A stretch of DNA of 64,000 bases. It comes from Heptranchias perlo. Lineage: Eukaryota. This document shows, in pieces, positions 12,832-37,400 of the stretch. The first letter of the stretch is position 1. Each line of letters opens with the position of its first letter. Made by a program: the position numbers and the translations under genes. Location: positions 5,022,001-5,086,000 of the forward strand of contig NC_090357.1 in NCBI RefSeq assembly GCF_035084215.1. The letters are read 5' to 3'. Below the pieces are notes generated by a model. That model saw only the letters and a program-made list of their open reading frames with translations. It had not been told where the DNA came from and searched no databases.

Positions 12832-13172
12832 CAACGTGCTTTACAGCCAATGAAGTACTTTTGAAGCGTAGTCACTGTTGTAATGTAGGTAACACAGCAG
12901 CCAATTTGCGCACAGCAAGATCCCACAAACAACAATGAGATGATAATGTTTTAGTGATGATGGTTTTGGGATAAATATTGGCCAGGGCAGTGGGGGAACT
13001 CCCCTGCTCTTCTTCGAAATAGTACCATAGGATCTTTTACGTCCACCAGAGAGGGTTGCCAGGGCTTCGGTATAACGTCTCAGCCAAAAGACCTTCAACA
13101 GTGCAGTACTTCCTTAATACTACACTAGAGTGTCAGCCTGGATTAAGTGCTCCAGTCTCTGGAGTAGGACTG
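12832..13172 (-). mobile_element. DeuSINE fragment (others at about 7945-8258 and 22370-22590)
   Basis: Same consensus as 11218-11675. Confidence 0.75.
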
Positions 13173-13329: not shown

Positions 13330-13965
13330 CTGTGCACCCTTACCTCCACCTCTGCAATATCGGCCGTCTCCTCCCCTACCTCAGCCCACCTGCTGATGAA
13401 ACCCTCATCCATGCTTTTGTGACCTCCCGACTCGACTATTCCAATGCTCTCCTGGCCAGCGTCCCATCTTCCACCCTCCGTAAACTTGAACTCATCCAAA
13501 ACTCTGGTGCCCATATCCTAACTCGACCAAGTGCCATTCACCCATCATCCCTCGCTGACCTACATTGGCTCCCGGTCGAGTAACGCCTCGATTTAAAATT
13601 CTCAGCCTCGTGTTCAAATTCCTCCATGGCCTCTCCCCTCCCCTCCCTATTTCTAACCTCCTTCAGCCCTACAACCCTCTGAGAATGCTGCGATCCTCAA
13701 ATTCTGGCCTCTTGTGCATCCCCGACTTCCAACGCCTCACCATTGATGGCCGTGCCATCAAAAGTCTAGGCCCTAAACTCTGGAATTCCCTCCCTAAACC
13801 TCTCCACCTCTCTCCCCTCCTTTAAAAGACACTGCTTAAAATCTAGCTTTGTCCTAATATCTCCTCCTTTGACTCTGTGTCAAATTTTGTTTGATAATCG
13901 CTCCTGTGAAGTGCCTTGGGACGTTTTACTACATTAAAGGCGCTATATAAGTGGGAGTTGTTATA
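13330..13965 (+). mobile_element. L2-clade LINE 3' fragment
   Basis: ETLIHAFVTSRLDYSNALLA...LELIQNS...LHWLPV...LWNSLP. Confidence 0.88.
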
Positions 13966-14041
13966 TATAGAAATCTGGACACAGTTGATTTTTAATCCCC
14001 ATCTTTAAAATTAAGTTATAGTCCAGCAATTTTATTTTAAA

Positions 14042-14080
14042 TTCACAAGCTTTCGGAGGCTTCCTCCTTCGTCAGGTGAA
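14042..14080 (-). ncRNA. Minimal type-I hammerhead ribozyme motif, inverted copy
   Basis: Exact reverse complement of 14095-14133. Confidence 0.7.
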
Positions 14081-14094
14081 CGATGTGAACATCG

Positions 14095-14133
14095 TTCACC
14101 TGACGAAGGAGGAAGCCTCCGAAAGCTTGTGAA
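14095..14133 (+). ncRNA. Minimal type-I hammerhead ribozyme motif, copy 1
   Basis: Stem I TTCAC/GTGAA, core CTGACGA, extra A, stem II GGAGG-AAG-CCTCC, GAAA, palindromic AGCT stem III, predicted cleavage CUU^ after 14128. Confidence 0.75.
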
Positions 14134-14277
14134 TTTAAAATAAAATTGCTGGACTATAACTTGGTGTTGTAAAATTGTTTACAATTGTCAACCCCAGTCC
14201 ATCACCGGCATCTCCACATCTTTAAAAATTAAGACAGACAACTTTTGGACTGATGGTCATTCACCATTTTCACATCG

Positions 14278-14316
14278 TTCACCTGACGAAGGAGGAAGCC
14301 TCCGAAAGCTTGTGAA
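14278..14316 (+). ncRNA. Minimal type-I hammerhead ribozyme motif, copy 2
   Basis: Identical to 14095-14133. Confidence 0.75.
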
Positions 14317-14460
14317 TTTAAAATAAAATTGCTGGACTATAACTTGGTGTTGTAAAATTGTTTACAATTGTCAACCCCAGTCCATCACCGGCATCTCCAC
14401 ATCTTTAAAAATTAAGACAGACAACTTTTGGACTGATGGTCATTCACCATTTTCACATCG

Positions 14461-14499
14461 TTCACCTGACGAAGGAGGAAGCCTCCGAAAGCTTGTGAA
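14461..14499 (+). ncRNA. Minimal type-I hammerhead ribozyme motif, copy 3
   Basis: Identical to 14095-14133. Confidence 0.75.
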
Positions 14500-15408
14500 T
14501 TTAAAATAAAATTGCTGGACTATAACTTGGTGTTGTAAAATTGTTTACAATTGTCAACCCCAGTCCATCACCGGCATCTCCACATCTTTAAAAATTAAGA
14601 CAGACAACTTTTGGACTGATGGTCATTATGCTTCCATAGCCACTGATTTCCCTCCAACATCTTGTCCTGGAAACCTGGCAAAAGTTGACTAAGAAGTTCC
14701 TGTACAACAAAAACAGATGGATGGATAATTTTTCGAAACTTATATGGTTTGATATGGCCAAGATGTTATCACTTTGTGTGAATTTGTTTACGATGATCCA
14801 GGTGAGGGATGGCAGTGTCGGAGATGAGAACACATTCCACTCTGCACACCCAAATCAGAGACAGCTTTTCTAGACACAGAGCAACACCAGTGTGACATTT
14901 CCCTATTTCCCCACATGATGCACGTTGTGGTCTCTCTAAACGAGAGCATTAAATTAATGGTAAATTGAGGCCAGTTTTGTGCTATGGGGTCGTGCTCACT
15001 AGGAACTGGATTAAGACTGCTCCAACTCATTCTTACAGCAGCAAAGGAGATCAGCCCATCAACCTGTAATAGATTTGAACCCAGATTCCAGAGGTGAAAA
15101 AGACAATGCCATAAATATATAGATATAAATTTATGATTAAAATATAATTACCTCAGACTCATTAAAGCAGCAATGGCATTTTACTGTATAATCTATCACA
15201 TGATCAGCAATATTCAAAGAAAAAATACATTTATACAAGTTAAAGTAGGCAGCAAACATTAAAGTGGACAACTTAAGGTACAAACCAAGATAGGCCAAGC
15301 CCCAATAATGCAGTTAACAATATCCCGTTTCTGGTGTACTTTCATGTAGATATGGGATTCGGGAATCTTTTTGTGATTACCCATTACCGAAAAGCAAAAC
15401 AGTATGCT

Positions 15409-15773
15409 TTTATTTTAAAAACATTCTAAACACAAAGGCAATTAAATGGCACAGAAAGAATATTTTTAAAAATTGCTGCTTGAATCATCAGAATCATAAT
15501 TATCCAGATCCTTTAGCAACCAATCCATTCATGTCATAATTAAAACTAGAAAACAACCAAAGAATAATCTGTACCCCAGATATTGAAGTGCACGACAATA
15601 ACAGCTTTCAGTTCAATCGTACGTTGAGGCCCTGATTCACGAGACCTTTGCAGATCTTCTGTGCTACATATAACAAGTAACCATCTGCAGAATTAAAAAT
15701 AAAGCCTTTCCAATCTGCAAAAGCTAGTGAAGTGGGGTCCCCTCTCACACAAATCTACACGGAGTCTTTTATT
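15409..15773 (-). other. Candidate SC5D polyadenylation signals (AATAAA on the minus strand at 15773-15768 and 15414-15409)
   Basis: TTTATT on the plus strand in AT-rich sequence downstream of the SC5D stop; usage cannot be shown from sequence. Confidence 0.4.
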
Positions 15774-15913
15774 GCCGCACATTTCCAATAGGCCTCATTT
15801 GTAGTAATAAATACAGTAGATCAGAGCACTGAGTGTTGCCTGGATTATATGTCATTATAGTATTGTTCTTGGCAGGGATAAGAGCACAGGCAATGATGGG
15901 GAATGAAAGCTGC

Positions 15914-16363
15914 TCAGTCTTCTTTGCAGATTTTCCCATTGGACGTGTGGCCGTTGGTGGACGAACTGCCACACAGCTTTCCCTCGGCCGTCAGCTTCCT
16001 CAGGTAGTCGTGTGGACCTCTGCCTTCGAAGGCTGAGGGATGCTTGTAGGAGCCTCCGATTCTGTCCCACAGCGTGAAGTACTGCCCGTAATTATAGTCA
16101 AAGTACAGATGGTGGTCCGTGTGGTGAGCTGAGCCGTTGATGACGTCCTCGAGTATCTTGGGCACTCGATAGTCTCCGTCGTGAATGGACACCGTCCAAA
16201 TGTTGACAAAGACGTAGAGGCCCAGGTAGACCAGCTTATGCAGCGGGAAGAGAAACGGATAGATGTGATAAGGGATGCTCTGTAGGAAGCCGTCCACTGG
16301 GTGAAAAGCGTGACTCGCAAATGGGGTCGCAATCTTCCAAGTGTGGTGGGGCTTGTGGAAATA
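15914..16363 (-). CDS. SC5D: SC5D last coding exon (His boxes HKPHH and HTDHH)
   Basis: TAG acceptor at 16366-16364; [29 protein letters not shown]...GKICKED-stop, in frame with ORF 15914..16297; 450 nt. Confidence 0.96.
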
Positions 16364-17714
16364 CTACAGACAATACAAGAAGAAGTTACAAGAATCTGTG
16401 CATTAAATGGTCACGTGAAACGAAAGGCATGCTATTTGAGGATACTCGAGATGCTCTTCAATTACCGTGTAGCAAACCATTCCATGGTATCTGATTGTCT
16501 ATCAGCATCTGAATCTGGATTAGCTGCAATGATGAAAAATCCACTTTTTTTTTAATATATGAAGTGAGAATAAGGTCAGCAACAGTTTCTTGACACCACC
16601 CTTTCAGGCAGTGCATTCAATAGTAACTTTCAAGAGGGAATTGGATATATACTTGAAAAGGAAAAATTTGCAGGACTATGGGGAAAGAGCAGAGGGGGTG
16701 GGACTAATTGGATAGTTCTTTCAAAGAGCCGGTACACACACAATGGGCCAAATGGCCTCTTTCTATGCTGTATGATTCTATGAAATAGCAGCTAGCTACA
16801 CCTGAGCAACTCCCTTTCATGGAAGTACTAGTGAAATGTGTGTATAATTATGACAACTAAATCTTATCCCCATTTTCATATTTATTATATTTAGTTATTT
16901 GTATAACATAACTGTACTGCCTTGTAAGTCCGAAACATTTATCAGGTCAGGAAGTAACCTGCCATTTAAAATGAAGTGTATTTACCTTATAGATGAGCTT
17001 GTGGTGAAGAAACCGATGGATCCAGTAGATACACATGTCCGTAAAGAAGAGGAAGGAGATCATACTGAGGGCCACCCCAAACCAACCTGATAACACAGAA
17101 AGAGCGTTGGAGGTTCAGGGTACAATCACAGAGAGATTATCCATCCATACCAGCTCCTCACACACACACACACGCAGCCAAGAAGCTTCACAGTCACGGG
17201 CCAGACACACAAGGGGGAGGGAATTTAACACCCTCCGCAAGGCAGAAACTAGGCAGAGCAGGAGTTAAAATCCAAGCATGGATGTAGCGCTCTTTTCCCG
17301 CCCCGTAGCCATTATAACACTGCTGTTTTCTTGGGCTGTGGACATGCCCGTCAGACTCGGGCGGAAGCCTCATGAACAACAACCTGCATTTATACAGCGC
17401 CTTTAACGTAGTGAAACATCCCAAGGTGCTTCACAGCAGCGTTTATCAGGCAGAAGTTGACACTGAGCCACATAAGAGATACCAGGACAGCTGACCAAAA
17501 GCTTGGTCAAAGAGGTAGGTTTTAAGCAGCATCTTCAAGGAGGAGAGGTGGAGAGGTTTGGGGAGGGAATTCCTGACCTTAGGGCCTAGGCAGCTGGAAC
17601 AAATTTAATTCGGGGTCCTATGTCATTAGGACCCAGGTGTAATTTTAACCGTCTATTGAGCGTGGTGCTAGCTGCAGACACTCCACTCAGCAAAACCTGG
17701 CCGACTCTCACTCA

Positions 17715-31400: not shown

Positions 31401-34400
31401 GGGTGTCTGATTAATGGAATGAGAGGGGGTGTCTGATTAATGGAATAGTGGTACAGTTGCTGATCAGGAAAACGAGCTAGGGAATATATGGATAAATCTA
31501 TGAAACTTTCATCGTGTGGCTTAGCTGCAATAAAAGGACAAATCAGATACTGAGCTGGATAGGGAATAAATGAAAAAAGTTGTGTTATTGCTGCATAAAG
31601 CATTGGTTAGATCCCAAATAAAAACTAAAAATGCCGGTAACACTCAGCAGGCCAGGCAGCATCTGTGGCGAGTGAAACTGAGTTAACATTTCAGTGCTTC
31701 ACAGAGGCATAATCAAAAAAAATTATTCAATGCGAAGAAAGATTCAAATGCCAGAGGCACAAATTTAAAAATGAGCGAAATGAAAATAAAAACTGCAAAG
31801 GCTGAAAATATGAAACACAAACAGGAAACGCTGGAAATATACATCAGGTCTGTCAGTATCTGTAAGGAGAAAGGACAGGTTTACATTTCATATGTTCCGA
31901 TGAAAGAGCAACACCAAAAATGTTAATGTTTACAGACGCCAACCGAACTCTTGTGTATTTTAAGAATGAGTAAATTAGGCAAAAGATTTCCATCCAAAGG
32001 ACAATAGAGTTTGTGGACTGAGTTACCGGAGAGAGTCAATGAAGCAGGCAGTATTCAGGAGGTCATGAGGCAATTAGATTTGTCTGTCGTGGTCCACTCT
32101 GGCCTCTGAGTCAGAAGGTTGTGGGTTTAAGTCCCACTCCAGAGACTTGAGCGCAAAATCTAGGCTGACACCCTCTGCACTGTCGGAGGTGCCGTCTTTC
32201 AGATGAGACGTTAAACCGAGGCCCCGTCTGCCCTCTCAGGTGGACGTAAAAGATCCCGATGCACTATTTTGAAGAAGAGCAGGGGGAGTTCTCCCCGGTG
32301 TCCTGGCCAATATTTATCCCTCAACCAACATCACTAAAACAGATTAACTGGTCGTTATCACATTGCTGTTTGTGGGACCTTGCTGTGCATATATTGGCTG
32401 CTGCATTTCCTACATTACAACAGTGACTACACTTCAAACACACTTGATTTTTCTGTAAATTGGAATGTTCTGAGGTCGTGAAAGGTGTTATTTAAATGCC
32501 GTACTTTAAGTACTAATCTCTCATTTCCTGTGTGAAACAGTAAATAAGTATCATGTGCCTCTGGGCTGCTCTGCTATTATCTGCATAATTACTTTTCAGA
32601 ATGAAGTGACAGGCCTCTACTCTCACTTAGAGGGAATCCCGAAGGCTCTGTTACCTGGAGTCGGTGGGAAGAAGATCCTGGATTTCTGGTGGGAAGTTGT
32701 GAATATGTGAGTGGTTGTCGCTATCGTTCCTGCTTTCACCTGTAAGAGCAGCATGTTGAGATATTTAATTTTCAAATTTGTGACTTACCTGATTAAGATA
32801 TTTTGGCCAGGACTTGCAAATCTAGGAGAAGATTAGAAAGGAGGGGATGGTGGGGAGGGGAGCTGTGACTAGCGGAAAATGTGCGATGAAGAGAGGAGAT
32901 CTGATTCAACGTGTTCGACTAAAACTAGTTTTTTACACGGTTAAAAAGGATTGTGCAGTAACACCAGGTCAGTACAGTGCTTGACATCAATACTGTCTGA
33001 CAGGTTGTTGTTGCAGGCAGATATACAGGAAGATTTAACCAGGTCTCTTTCAGCCGTGGCTCAGTGGGTAGCGCTATTGCCTCTGAGTCAGAAGGTTCAA
33101 GTCCCATTCCAGAGACTTGAGCACAAAACCTAGGCCGACACACCAGTGCAGCACTGAGGGAGTGCTGCACTGTCAGAGGTGCCGTCTTTCAGCTGAGGCC
33201 CTATCTGCCCTCTCAGGTGGACGTAAAGGATCCCATGGCACTATTCGAAGAAGAGCAGGGGAGTTCTTCCCCGGTGTCCTGGCCATATTTATCCCTCAAC
33301 CAACATCACTGAAACAGATTATCTGGTCAAACGGCAATTGAGACTAGCTCAATTGCTAAATTTAAATCTGAGATAGATAGCTTTTTGGCAACCAAAGGTA
33401 TTAAGGGATATGGGCCAAAGGCAGGTATATAGAGCTGGATCACAGATCAGCCATGAACTGATCAAATGGCGGAGCAGGCACGAGGGGCTGAATGGCCTAC
33501 TCCTGTTCCTATGTTCCTATTATCTCATTGCCATTTGTGGGACCTTGCTGTGCCCGAATTGGCTGTTGCGTTTCCTGCATCACAACAGTGACTACACTTC
33601 AAAAAAGTGCTTATTTGCCTATAAAGCGCTTTGGGACATCTTGAGGTCATGAAAGGTGCTATATAAATGCAAGTTCTTTGTTCTATCTTTCTTTCTATGT
33701 ACCTCCCTATATGAAGTTGATTTTTACTTACCATATATTGGTGTGTTTTCTCCATACTGTTTGCAGGCGCCAGCTCTTCAGTGAGGTCTACCTCGTCACA
33801 AATGCAGACAAGTGAGTAGATCTCTTCTTTTTTCTAGCAAAGTCGCACGAAGTCAATAAAACAGAAGTGAAATACTGCGGATGCTGGAAATCTGAAATAA
33901 AGCCAGAAAATGCTGGAAACGCTCAGCAGGTCAGGCAGCATCTGTGGAGAGAGAAACAGAGTTATCGTTTCAGGTCCTTTCATCAGAACTGGAAGATGTT
34001 AGAGATTTAAAACAGCTTTTAAGCAAATGCAGAGCGAGGGAAAAGGGGGGATAAGAAAAGAATAAAAAAGAGGTCTGTGAAAGGGTGGAGGGTAGGAGTG
34101 ACATAAAAGTGGATTGAATCCATTCAAAAGGTTTGGACGGTATGTACCTGTAGAATAACAGAGACCTGGGAGTGAGCTATAGGCTGGAATCTAGTCGAGG
34201 GGTTTGGGGGGTTTATATATAGAATAACGGATACCCAGGAGTGAGTTACAGGCTGGAATCTAGTCGAGGGCTTTGTGGGGCTTATATATAGAATTTCGGA
34301 TACCCGGGAGTGAGTTACAGGCTGGAATCTAGTCGAGGGGTTTGGGGGGTTTATATATAGAAGTTCGGATACCCGGGAGTGAGTTACAGGCTGGAATCTA

Positions 34401-37400
34401 GTCGAGGGGTTTGGGGGGTTTATATATAGAATTTCGGATACCCGGGAGTGAGTTACAGGCTGGAATCTAGTTGAGGGCTTTGGGGGGTTTATATGTAGAA
34501 TAACGGATACCCGGGAGTGAGTTACAGGCTGGAATCTAGTCGAGGGGTTCGGGTGGTTTATATGTAGAATAACGGATTCCGGGGAGTGAGTTACAGGCTG
34601 GATAAATGGCAGGTTAAAGGTTTAGAAGGAGAAATTTTAAAAATACTCTTGTGGTACAGTCAGGGTTTTAGGTGAAGATTTGTATTGTGCTCGTAATTGT
34701 TACTTCCGCAAGTTGCTCCTTTATTTCTGTTGGTTATTAGAAAGTTCTCTGTAATTGGCTGACAGTTGCAATTTTTGTGAATTTTTAGCCTGTCACAGTC
34801 ACGAGAAAGCGAGCAGGTATAGGTTTGTTATCATTAATTTGTCCCTATGTTTAGGGAAATAACACTAGTACTAGTTCTGACCTTGAGCTGAGACAACAAC
34901 CACAGAAAGTGGTGCTAAGATTGCTAAACACTTCATTCGATTGCCGGACAACAATAAGCAAAAGCTCTACTCACAACTGGAAACACGGTTCAGAACATGG
35001 ATTGACCAGACTGTTGTTCTGAGGAGGGCCAGCTGTGTCTACTGAAGTGATTCTTCCTTGTCTTCTTCATGTTGCATCTCCTCCCGATAGCACAGTTTGT
35101 TCTCTTTTTTTTATTTTAGTTTTAAGGTTTTGTCTTCTGGCTTCCGACTCCCATAAAAGGGGCCTCTCTGCCATTGTTAGTTTTTGTTATAGTGTCCAAA
35201 GTCACAACCTTTAACTTTTCCCATTTTCTGTTTTTTTTTCCCCCCATTAGCCAAAGAATCAAAAAATTCATGACATTTAAATGACCCAAAATAATCCTGT
35301 ACCCTACACAGGAAGGCTTGCTTGTGTGCGGGTGCTGTGTGTGGGATGGATGATGAAATTTGCACTGTTGAGCTATTTTGGAATTAACTGTTAGCTTTCA
35401 CGTTCAGGTACAAGTACTATGAGCGATGGGCAACTGCCAATGACTTTCCGGTGGAAAACATTATTAACGATGGCTCGACAACCAGCAGAACACAATTGGG
35501 CGCAGTGGCAGACTTGGAACTGGTGGTCAGAAGCAAGAGGTTTGATGACGATGTGATGGTGGTACGTCTTGTTCCTGTTGCTGACTGTTTGTTGATGTGC
35601 ACGAGCATTTCAAGCACAGTCTCACCTCAGTCTCGCTTCATGTTGTACGTCCAGGTTGCTGGAGATATGCTGTGTGAAGATCTGAACTTCGATATAGCTG
35701 AAGTCCTCAAGTTCTTTAAGTTTAAGGTCAGTCTGAACCACTAGTTTCTTGTTTATCGTCCTGTTTTAATTGGCCTAATATGGGTTTAAATGAAACGCTA
35801 CTGGCTTAACGCTAGGGATAAGGGCTGGAAATTTGGACTGTGCAATCTTACCTTGTGAGGAGTGAATTAAATCACCCGCTGGCTCAGTGCGGTGCCTGGA
35901 GTGGTCGCAAGGTAGAATGACATAGAATTTACAGCATAGAAACAGGCCATCGCAGCTGACTTCAGTCCGACAAGCCAGGACTTCAGTATTTGGGGTCTGA
36001 TCTTCTCGATGGTGTGAAGGAAGTGAAAGCATTCAAAATCACCTGTGAGCCCTCCAAATATCACAGCTGTCCACAAGAGACTGCGGGACCACTGCATTGT
36101 ATACTTGGTCTTCATATTTGGTCCATGTTCATCCCATGCACTGACCATGCCTTCCTCAATCAATCGAACACTTCTTTATCCAGAGATATTTGTGAAAAAT
36201 CAATATATATTGTACTTCAAAAAAAAACTTTTTTGGCCTGCACATCCAGGAATAATGGCGTGTCAAAGCACTTATTGCACAGAGGTGTGATTGCAGGTTT
36301 GACTGACAAGGAATGTTCCCGATCTTATTCAAGTGGAGTTGAGTCTTTTACGGGGTGGGGAGGAAGAGGGGCTAACTAGTTGTGGATCTTCCAATGATGG
36401 GTTAGAGAAAGTCTGTCTTCATGGAGAGTGAGCAAAAAAATAATTAAAGGGAAGGATTCGACACAATGCAGGCCCCACGTAAGGCCAGAATCCCCCTTTA
36501 CCCCTAAACAAGGGAAGAGTGTGTCAATGTGGAAAGGGGGAACAAGTTAACAACAGATCCTCTCCGTTAACTTGGTGCCCCTAAGACCCACGCCCCACTT
36601 AGGCAAGACTCTTAATAGTCCCATCGTCCAGCTGAACTCCAGAGACCATCACTTACCTGATCCATCCCCAAACAGTGTGCCCGCCCCACAGTTACTTTAC
36701 AAAATATGTGTATTATTCTGAACTAAGAACATAGCTGTGAGTAAGAAGAAGTAAAAACTTGCATTTATATAGCACCTTTCACAACCTCAGGATATCCCAA
36801 AACACTTTGTAGCCAATGAAGTACCTTTTGAAGTGTAGTCACTGTTGTAGGAAACGTGGCAGCCAATTTGCACACAGCAAGATCCCACAAACAGCAATGT
36901 GATAGTGACCAGATAATCCTTTTGAGTGATGTTGGTTGAGGGATAAATGTTGGCCAGGACACCGGGGAGAACTCCCCTGCTCTTCTTCGAAATAATGCCA
37001 TGGGATCTTGTCCGTCCACCTGAGAGGGCAGATGGGGCCTCAGTTTAACGTCTCATCCAAAAGACGACACCTCCGACAGTGCAGCGCTCCCTCAGCACTG
37101 CACTGGAGCGTCGGGGTAGATTACATGCTCAAGCCTCTGGAGTGGGACTCGAACTTACAACCTACTGATTCAGGTGATAGTGCTACCAACTGAGTCACGG
37201 CTGACTCATGAGTAATGCAAGTAACTGTCCCAATGTGCTTATAAAAGGCTAACATTACCACTGTGTTTCTGTGTTGGTTGGCAGAAGGGTGAACTGGCCA
37301 TTTACTACGAGATGGAGGAAGGAGAGAAGACTGAATCTCGGGGAATAGTTGAGGTGTGCCCCTGTACAAACAGGTAGGTTCTCAATTTGAAAAGGGTCAG

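What the first reader, a model, noticed from the sequence alone, without database searches (positions are those of the whole stretch)
14089..14627. Tandem array of intact minimal hammerhead ribozymes (retrozyme-like, 183-nt monomer)
Seen: three identical units with 183-bp period. Each contains TTCAC-CTGACGA-A-GGAGG-AAG-CCTCC-GAAA-GC-TT-GTGAA, which gives stem I (TTCAC/GTGAA), both catalytic boxes, stem II and only a palindromic AGCT in place of stem III. Established: Penelope-like elements carry such minimal type-I hammerheads, which cleave as dimers through the palindromic stem III, and tandem hammerhead repeats of this size class (non-LTR retrozymes) yield small circular RNAs in several metazoans. 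Inference: a plus-strand transcript could pair neighbouring hammerheads in cis, cleave after 14128, 14311 and 14494, and release 183-nt monomers able to circularise. The copies are identical, so the array is very young or polymorphic. I do not know of a characterised shark example, but cannot check that.
Basis: partly seen in the sequence, partly recalled or inferred. Interest (0 to 1): 0.78.

Follow-up and report, generated by a model that had tools for sequence, protein, structure and literature searches.

The report
Penelope-element stump triplicated with local DNA
The three self-cutting-RNA motifs are real, but they are the end piece of a very common jumping gene that landed here and was copied in place together with 41 bases of the neighbouring DNA, so this looks like a known kind of transposon debris and not a dedicated circular-RNA element.

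Summary
The array is real: 14089-14627, period 183, 100% identical, three minimal type I hammerheads with the predicted cut sites. Each unit is a chimera: 139 nt of a very high-copy repeat family (14448-14586; 14,939 contigs laid in one DNA run), 41 nt continuous with the single-copy right flank, and a 3-nt filler. An inverted 5' arm, a TSD, two family 3' ends 30 nt apart and the extra core A all fit a truncated Penelope-like element (PLE) pLTR insertion. Because the unit holds local flank, the tandem most likely arose at this site and did not arrive as a circle. Template switching during insertion is inferred. It meets a 2026 preprint's sequence-only definition of a non-LTR retrozyme, already reported in one cartilaginous fish, but expression, circles and mobility are untested. 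Published minimal-hammerhead dimers cleave weakly or not at all. The scan earlier noted similar PLE stumps in two other shark-like genomes. Residual interest: a clean snapshot of a retrozyme-like repeat being born from a pLTR.

The parts
14000..14015 (+). Left copy of the target-site duplication (CATC microhomology to the element's 3' end, AT-rich core, AAG shared with the inverted arm)
   Evidence: Only place besides the three units that matches the right-hand 17-mer within 1 edit, both strands of 64 kb; one A fewer in the A run
14013..14089 (-). Inverted, truncated pLTR copy with a fourth identical minimal hammerhead (core 14075 to 14051, predicted cut after 14047); 74-bp perfect palindrome with unit 1 around a GA centre
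14089..14220 (+). Unit 1 element part (132 nt): hammerhead 1 (14094-14134, predicted cut after 14128), AATAAA, 3' end; 7 nt shorter at 5' than units 2 and 3
14221..14261 (+). Captured copy 1 of the 41-nt local right flank
   Evidence: identical to 14587-14627; outside family homology
14262..14264 (+). 3-nt filler CAC at the flank-to-element junction, next to a TCATT microhomology
   Evidence: reading as a stutter is inference
14265..14403 (+). Unit 2 element part (139 nt): hammerhead 2, predicted cut after 14311
14404..14447 (+). Captured copy 2 of the 41-nt flank plus the same CAC filler
14448..14586 (+). Unit 3 element part (139 nt): hammerhead 3, predicted cut after 14494; this interval is the extent of family homology
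   Evidence: loose ends before 14448 (13 X1 and 2 X11 contigs) and behind 14586 (95 X1, 22 X5, 1 X9 contigs)
14557..14586 (+). Candidate PLE 'tail': 30 nt between the family's two 3' ends
   Evidence: loose ends behind 14556 (17 X1 contigs) and 14586 (95); locus 9513-9722 has one arm ending near each
14583..14599 (+). Right copy of the target-site duplication
14587..14627 (+). The 41-nt local flank in its original place, continuous with single-copy DNA
   Evidence: X1 record 8 runs 14598-16450 with 0 differences at depth 11.2
9501..9730 (.). Second, diverged insertion of the same family: inverted arm from 9513, direct arm to 9722 with an altered stem II, 12-nt TSD (9501-9512 / 9719-9730, 11 of 12 identical), no tandem

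Best explanation
A heavily 5'-truncated insertion of a Penelope-like element's hammerhead-bearing pLTR, triplicated at its own landing site. Shown by sequence and reads: boundaries, inverted arm, TSD, family extent, local flank inside each unit, 7 extra element bases at the two internal junctions. Inferred: the PLE endonuclease made a staggered cut in AT-rich DNA; both ends primed cDNA (CATC and AAG microhomologies), giving the direct and the inverted arm; the right-primed cDNA stopped after 139 nt, switched by a TCATT microhomology onto target DNA 41 nt downstream, copied it back to the cut and re-primed on the element RNA, giving a flank-containing dimer; a later unequal exchange or slip (or a further identical round) gave the third copy. 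The hammerheads are passengers inherited from the parent element; the locus has probably no function, and any cleavage is likely weak.
For: Inverted 74-bp arm and TSD. Family homology confined to 14448-14586, with 14,939 contigs laid in X1 and summed depth 1-3.5 million against 11.2 on the flank (not a copy number). Two family 3' ends 30 nt apart, matching the 30-40 nt tail and inverted 5'-truncated copy described for PLEs (PMC8557442 passages; PMC3846280 passages). A PLE protein cuts and extends both strands at AT-rich DNA and starts at two sites (PMC11167929). Extra nucleotide between core positions 9 and 10.1 is the PLE min-HHR signature (PMC4209133). A second insertion with the same anatomy and no tandem lies 4.4 kb away. 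The 13-mer core of the TSD occurs within 1 edit at 5 places in 128 kb, 4 of them in this locus. The single-copy contig begins at 14598, the first 31-mer that reaches 14628, as expected if reads branch at the tandem junction.
Against: No RT/GIY-YIG ORF was found to tie the family to a PLE clade: none among the 35 ORFs of 120 aa or more that I could recognise (read by eye), no motif hit in six frames, no genome held. The empty site was not seen in any relative. The family sequence upstream of 14448, on which the TCATT microhomology rests, is a low-agreement consensus (0.55 and 0.77). The order of events is not shown. X1 may be the sample the window was built from.
Confidence: 0.78

Rival explanations
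1. A mobile non-LTR retrozyme: a 183-nt circular RNA made elsewhere was reverse-transcribed in rolling-circle fashion and inserted here as a trimer.
For: Unit size and 39% GC fall in the 170-400 nt, under 45-50% GC range of animal retrozymes (PMC7229834 passages); perfect head-to-tail identity; circle-templated tandems were proposed for PLEs (PMC4209133).
Against: The unit's first non-element bases duplicate the left flank (16 of 17) and run on into single-copy DNA; a circle from elsewhere would not carry them. The hammerhead is the minimal PLE type, not the canonical type described for retrozymes. The circular monomer is not unusually structured (-33.9 kcal/mol, z -1.3 against 200 shuffles).
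Confidence: 0.06
2. The tandem arose wholly after insertion, by DNA repair or slippage at the 74-bp palindrome, duplicating unit 1 plus 41 nt of flank.
For: Perfect palindromes are fragile (own knowledge); the minus arm supplies TTC of the extra bases; the CAC filler resembles repair-type templated insertions (own knowledge).
Against: Units 2 and 3 carry CATT at 14448-14451, family sequence found in neither unit 1 nor the inverted arm; a copy of the finished locus cannot easily supply it, although CATT also ends the flank piece and could be a re-copy of it.
Confidence: 0.2
3. Two separate insertions at one hot site: one stump with a 41-nt TSD that expanded by unequal exchange between the TSD copies, and a second, inverted/direct stump with a 13-17 nt TSD at the same nucleotide.
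For: Explains the two 5' ends and the identical internal junctions; PLE endonuclease is proposed to nick its own pLTR (PMC11167929); an identical 104-nt subfamily exists in another organism (X11 record 14), so identity does not prove one template.
Against: Needs two events at the same base from identical templates, while the family varies at 14499, 14515 and 14550 in 26-62% of X1 depth.
Confidence: 0.12
4. Assembly artefact: one unit expanded by the assembler.
For: 100% identity; PLE tandem/inverted structures trouble assemblers (PMC8557442).
Against: The internal junction has its own 10 nt absent before unit 1; the short-read contig graph breaks exactly where a real junction predicts, and 2 X1 records run over the ends of the laid stretch, one being record 8 on the right. 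This supports at least two units; two versus three is not settled.
Confidence: 0.04

Closest known systems
Truncated Penelope-like element insertions with direct and inverted pLTRs, tail and TSD (PMC3846280; PMC8557442; PMC11167929)
   Same: Inverted 5'-truncated arm with a palindromic junction, head-to-tail copies, two 3' ends about 30 nt apart, AT-rich target, TSD, hammerhead in the terminal repeat; PMC3846280 also reports unrelated DNA captured between solo pLTRs.
   Different: No ORF remains; the spacer is the insertion's own downstream flank, repeated in every unit. I did not find this exact arrangement in the passages read or in searches.
Minimal hammerheads (min-HHR) of metazoan PLEs (PMC4209133)
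   Same: Type I, extra nucleotide between 9 and 10.1, G10.1-C11.1, palindromic 15.2-16.2, short helix I, no tertiary loops; pairs on opposite strands 100-700 bp apart were already noted.
   Different: Helix II is 5 bp against 7-8 bp in the Schistosoma families; three same-strand copies at 183-nt spacing.
Non-LTR retrozymes of animals (PMC7229834; bioRxiv 10.64898/2026.07.22.740005)
   Same: Tandem of 183 nt, low GC, a type I hammerhead in each unit; meets the preprint's sequence criterion; fits its proposal that a PLE terminus amplifies locally into a tandem.
   Different: Minimal rather than canonical hammerhead; unit is locus-specific; no evidence of expression, circles or spread; three copies rather than a family.

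Membership tests
Penelope-like element (EN+) insertion | Inverted 5'-truncated copy next to a direct terminal repeat | tested here: met
   74-bp perfect inverted arm 14013-14086; same at 9513-9722
Penelope-like element (EN+) insertion | Optional 30-40 nt tail, two 3' ends | tested here: met
   family loose ends behind 14556 (17 contigs) and 14586 (95 contigs)
Penelope-like element (EN+) insertion | Target-site duplication at AT-rich DNA | tested here: met
   14000-14015 / 14583-14599, 16 of 17; empty site not seen
Penelope-like element (EN+) insertion | Minimal hammerhead in the pLTR | tested here: met
   stem II kept in family variants GGAG/CTCC and GGGG/CCCC (loose ends)
Penelope-like element (EN+) insertion | Parent ORF with telomerase-like RT and GIY-YIG endonuclease; clade | not testable with these tools
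   no genome held; no motif in the window; no family locus in viral, metagenome or prokaryote collections
Non-LTR retrozyme, operational (Li et al. 2026 preprint) | Two or more consecutive tandem units each with a complete type I HHR of MFE below -5 kcal/mol | tested here: met
   3 of 3 units; -12.2 kcal/mol for 14278-14320; criterion; their rnabob model was not run
Non-LTR retrozyme (Cervera and de la Pena 2020) | Canonical type I HHR with helix I-II tertiary interactions | tested here: not met
   minimal motif, 3-nt loop 2, no closed loop 1, extra A; no Rfam hammerhead match
Non-LTR retrozyme (Cervera and de la Pena 2020) | The unit is a dispersed, mobile repeat family | tested here: not met
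   only 139 of 183 nt are family; 41 nt continue into single-copy flank; a few distant copies cannot be excluded
Non-LTR retrozyme (Cervera and de la Pena 2020) | Highly self-paired monomer circle | tested here: inconclusive
   52% paired, z -1.3; no known retrozyme run as control
Non-LTR retrozyme (Cervera and de la Pena 2020) | Abundant linear and circular monomer RNA | not testable with these tools
   only contigs of runs guessed to be RNA were available
Non-LTR retrozyme (Cervera and de la Pena 2020) | Self-cleavage in vitro as monomer or dimer | not testable with these tools
   bench test; nearest-neighbour model puts the dimer fold 8 kcal/mol above the best fold, no positive control

The most novel reading that the evidence does not exclude
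The locus records the birth of a retrozyme-type repeat in one insertion event: the telomerase-related PLE reverse transcriptase alternated between its RNA (139 nt) and the target DNA (41 nt) and re-primed at the same site, a reiterative copying that turns a lone, inactive hammerhead into a dimer-competent array with a locus-specific unit, which can now release its own 183-nt RNA. If general, new retrozyme families would each start as pLTR plus captured target flank.
Probability: 0.2. Interest if true: 0.62.

Novelty: new member of a known kind. Interest (0 to 1): 0.3.

Why it matters
As a locus it is ordinary debris of an abundant element. Its value is as a worked example. A 2026 preprint proposes, from co-occurrence and trees, that animal retrozymes arise when a PLE terminus amplifies locally; this locus shows such an array with its TSD, inverted arm and captured flank still readable, so the step can be tested by a genome-wide count of flank-capturing arrays and by one cleavage assay. 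It also warns that sequence-only retrozyme counts include locus-specific arrays that never moved as circles.

Tried and rejected
No genome assembly is held, so copy number, other arrays and the autonomous partner could not be searched. Rfam: 0 matches at gathering score; the 21 E-value matches include no hammerhead family, and the strongest are miRNA models fitting the 74-bp hairpin far below their gathering scores; rejected. Family patterns found nothing in metagenome contigs or viral contigs; 2 bacterial hits are at chance level, about 4 expected, with 20-27 nt of similarity. No RNA holder listed. In X5 (RNA is the tool's guess; it holds a contig on the sterol-desaturase-like exon, 15158-16365) 2,710 contigs were laid, none ran over the ends of the stretch, and 14629-15036 had no depth: no sign of read-through into the array or of the junction, but contigs show presence, not absence. 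X9 and X11 do not cover the flank, so the empty site was not tested (4 of 24 listed runs laid, on 14425-16450 only, so the left flank and inverted junction were not examined in reads). The sigma-70 scan does not apply to an animal and was ignored. A snap-back origin of the palindrome centre from a natural hairpin was considered and dropped: family contigs diverge left of 14448. Dimer folding: 0 of 5000 and 0 of 2000 sampled structures hold all dimer helices, but without tertiary terms or a control this is weak. No de novo flank-capturing PLE insertion was described in the passages seen of PMC9977147. Look-ups of earlier findings by sequence, place and one word set were empty. Supplements of the bioRxiv preprint were not seen; they name the cartilaginous fish and its families and may hold this family.

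Full report
Observation. The array is at 14089-14627, period 183, 2.9 copies, 100% matches. Each unit holds TTCAC-CTGACGA-A-GGAGG-AAG-CCTCC-GAA-AGCT-T|GTGAA, with predicted cuts after 14128, 14311 and 14494. A monomer folds into helices I and II at -12.2 kcal/mol (7 of 200 shuffles as good). A minimal-hammerhead descriptor gives 4 hits in the window against 0.03 in shuffles. Rfam has no hammerhead match. Family variants in public contigs keep helix II with other letters (GGAG/CTCC, GGGG/CCCC; loose-end rows), which supports the fold for the family, not a function for this locus.

The fourth hit is on the minus strand: 14013-14086 is a perfect 74-bp inverted copy of the start of unit 1. Left of it, 14000-14015 repeats 14583-14599 with one A fewer; within one edit this 17-mer occurs only there and in the three units. 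That is a target-site duplication whose ends overlap the element by CATC on one side and AAG on the other. A diverged relative at 9513-9722 has the same inverted-plus-direct build and a 12-nt TSD, without a tandem.

What the unit is made of. I laid 4 of 24 listed runs on 14425-16450. In DNA run X1, 14,939 contigs were laid, with summed depth 1-3.5 million on the first three bins and 11.2 on most of the flank; this is no copy number but marks a very abundant family. Family homology starts at 14448 (13 X1 and 2 X11 contigs) and ends at 14586 (95 X1, 22 X5, 1 X9), with a second end at 14556 (17 X1). So a unit is 139 nt of family, 41 nt of non-family DNA (14587-14627) and CAC. The 41 nt begin with the TSD and continue into a single-copy contig (record 8, 14598-16450, 0 differences). 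That contig starts at the first 31-mer reaching 14628, which is what a real branch at the tandem junction gives; at least two units are therefore in the reads, though X1 may be the source sample. Units 2 and 3 start 7 family bases earlier than unit 1.

What it is. An inverted 5'-truncated copy, partial tandems and a 30-40 nt tail are the described marks of PLE insertions (PMC8557442, passages; PMC3846280, passages). The anole PLE protein cuts and extends both strands, prefers AT-rich DNA and starts at two RNA sites that define the tail (PMC11167929, results read). The extra base between core positions 9 and 10.1 is typical of PLE minimal hammerheads (PMC4209133, results and discussion read). 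I file it as a PLE pLTR stump (about 0.9). The parent ORF was not found: no genome is held, and the window and other collections gave nothing.

How it arose (inferred). Both ends of a staggered cut primed cDNA, giving the two arms. The right-primed cDNA ended after 139 nt, where family and flank share TCATT, switched to target DNA 41 nt downstream with a 3-nt stutter, copied back to the cut and re-primed. A later unequal exchange, or another round, gave the third copy. Rivals are post-insertion repair at the palindrome (0.2), two insertions at one site (0.12), an incoming circle (0.06) and artefact (0.04). The first three differ in history but the first two share the main point: the tandem was made here.

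Does it work as a retrozyme? The cis dimer is a nested structure, but lies about 8 kcal/mol above the best fold of units 2+3 and appears in 0 of 5000 samples (no tertiary terms, no control). In a plus transcript that includes the inverted arm one hammerhead is bound in 2000 of 2000 samples; on the minus strand the single sense hammerhead is inside the long hairpin. The monomer circle is not unusually folded (z -1.3). In print, minimal-hammerhead dimers cleave at low level, 1 of 9 Xenopus dimers cleaved and the anole motif needed protein. I put efficient release of a 183-nt circle from this locus at about 0.1. The array lies about 1.3 kb beyond the stop of a minus-strand exon with a fatty acid hydroxylase domain (PF04116, E 1.9e-18; the name SC5D is recalled). 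Expression is untested.

Age.

Comparison. It works like, and by anatomy is, a PLE terminal fragment. It meets the sequence-only retrozyme criterion of bioRxiv 10.64898/2026.07.22.740005 (parts 1-3 of 5 read; supplements not seen), which reports such arrays in the one cartilaginous fish sampled and proposes local amplification of a PLE terminus. It fails two features of retrozymes as described in PMC7229834 (passages): canonical hammerhead and a dispersed unit. I found no experimental shark example in searches, and no description of a unit built from pLTR plus the insertion's own flank in searches; the library lacks most subscription papers. Earlier scan notes report PLE stumps in two other shark-like genomes (unchecked).

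Verdict. Observation confirmed, interpretation partly supported. New member of a known kind; interest 0.3. The boldest reading left open, reiterative RNA/target copying that creates a new retrozyme-type unit, has probability about 0.2.

Noticed in passing
window 9501-9730: Second insertion of the same family: inverted and direct arms differing at 1 of 72 bases, 12-nt TSD, one hammerhead with a weakened stem II.
   Followed up: partly
window 15914-16363 (-): Last coding exon of a sterol-desaturase-like gene (PF04116; SC5D by recall). A contig of run X5 covers 15158-16365 and differs from the window at 3 bases and one insertion, possibly another haplotype.
   Followed up: partly
window 33930-33990 (-): Degenerate CTGATGA...GAAA motif in a repeat that I recall as another abundant shark hammerhead-like family; fails the descriptor here.
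   Followed up: no
window 12695-12863: Overlapping inverted repeats (53 nt at 83%, 32 nt at 88%) built from the common SINE/LINE-tail sequence also seen at 13936-13958.
   Followed up: no
window 14448-14498 (+): An open frame runs through the hammerhead to a stop just after the cut site, and many family contigs continue behind 14586 with ATG (low agreement); these may be the end and start of the parent ORF.
   Followed up: no
window 2562-3229, 10616-10891, 34151-34602: Other minisatellites (39, 56 and 69-nt periods) without hammerhead motifs.
   Followed up: no
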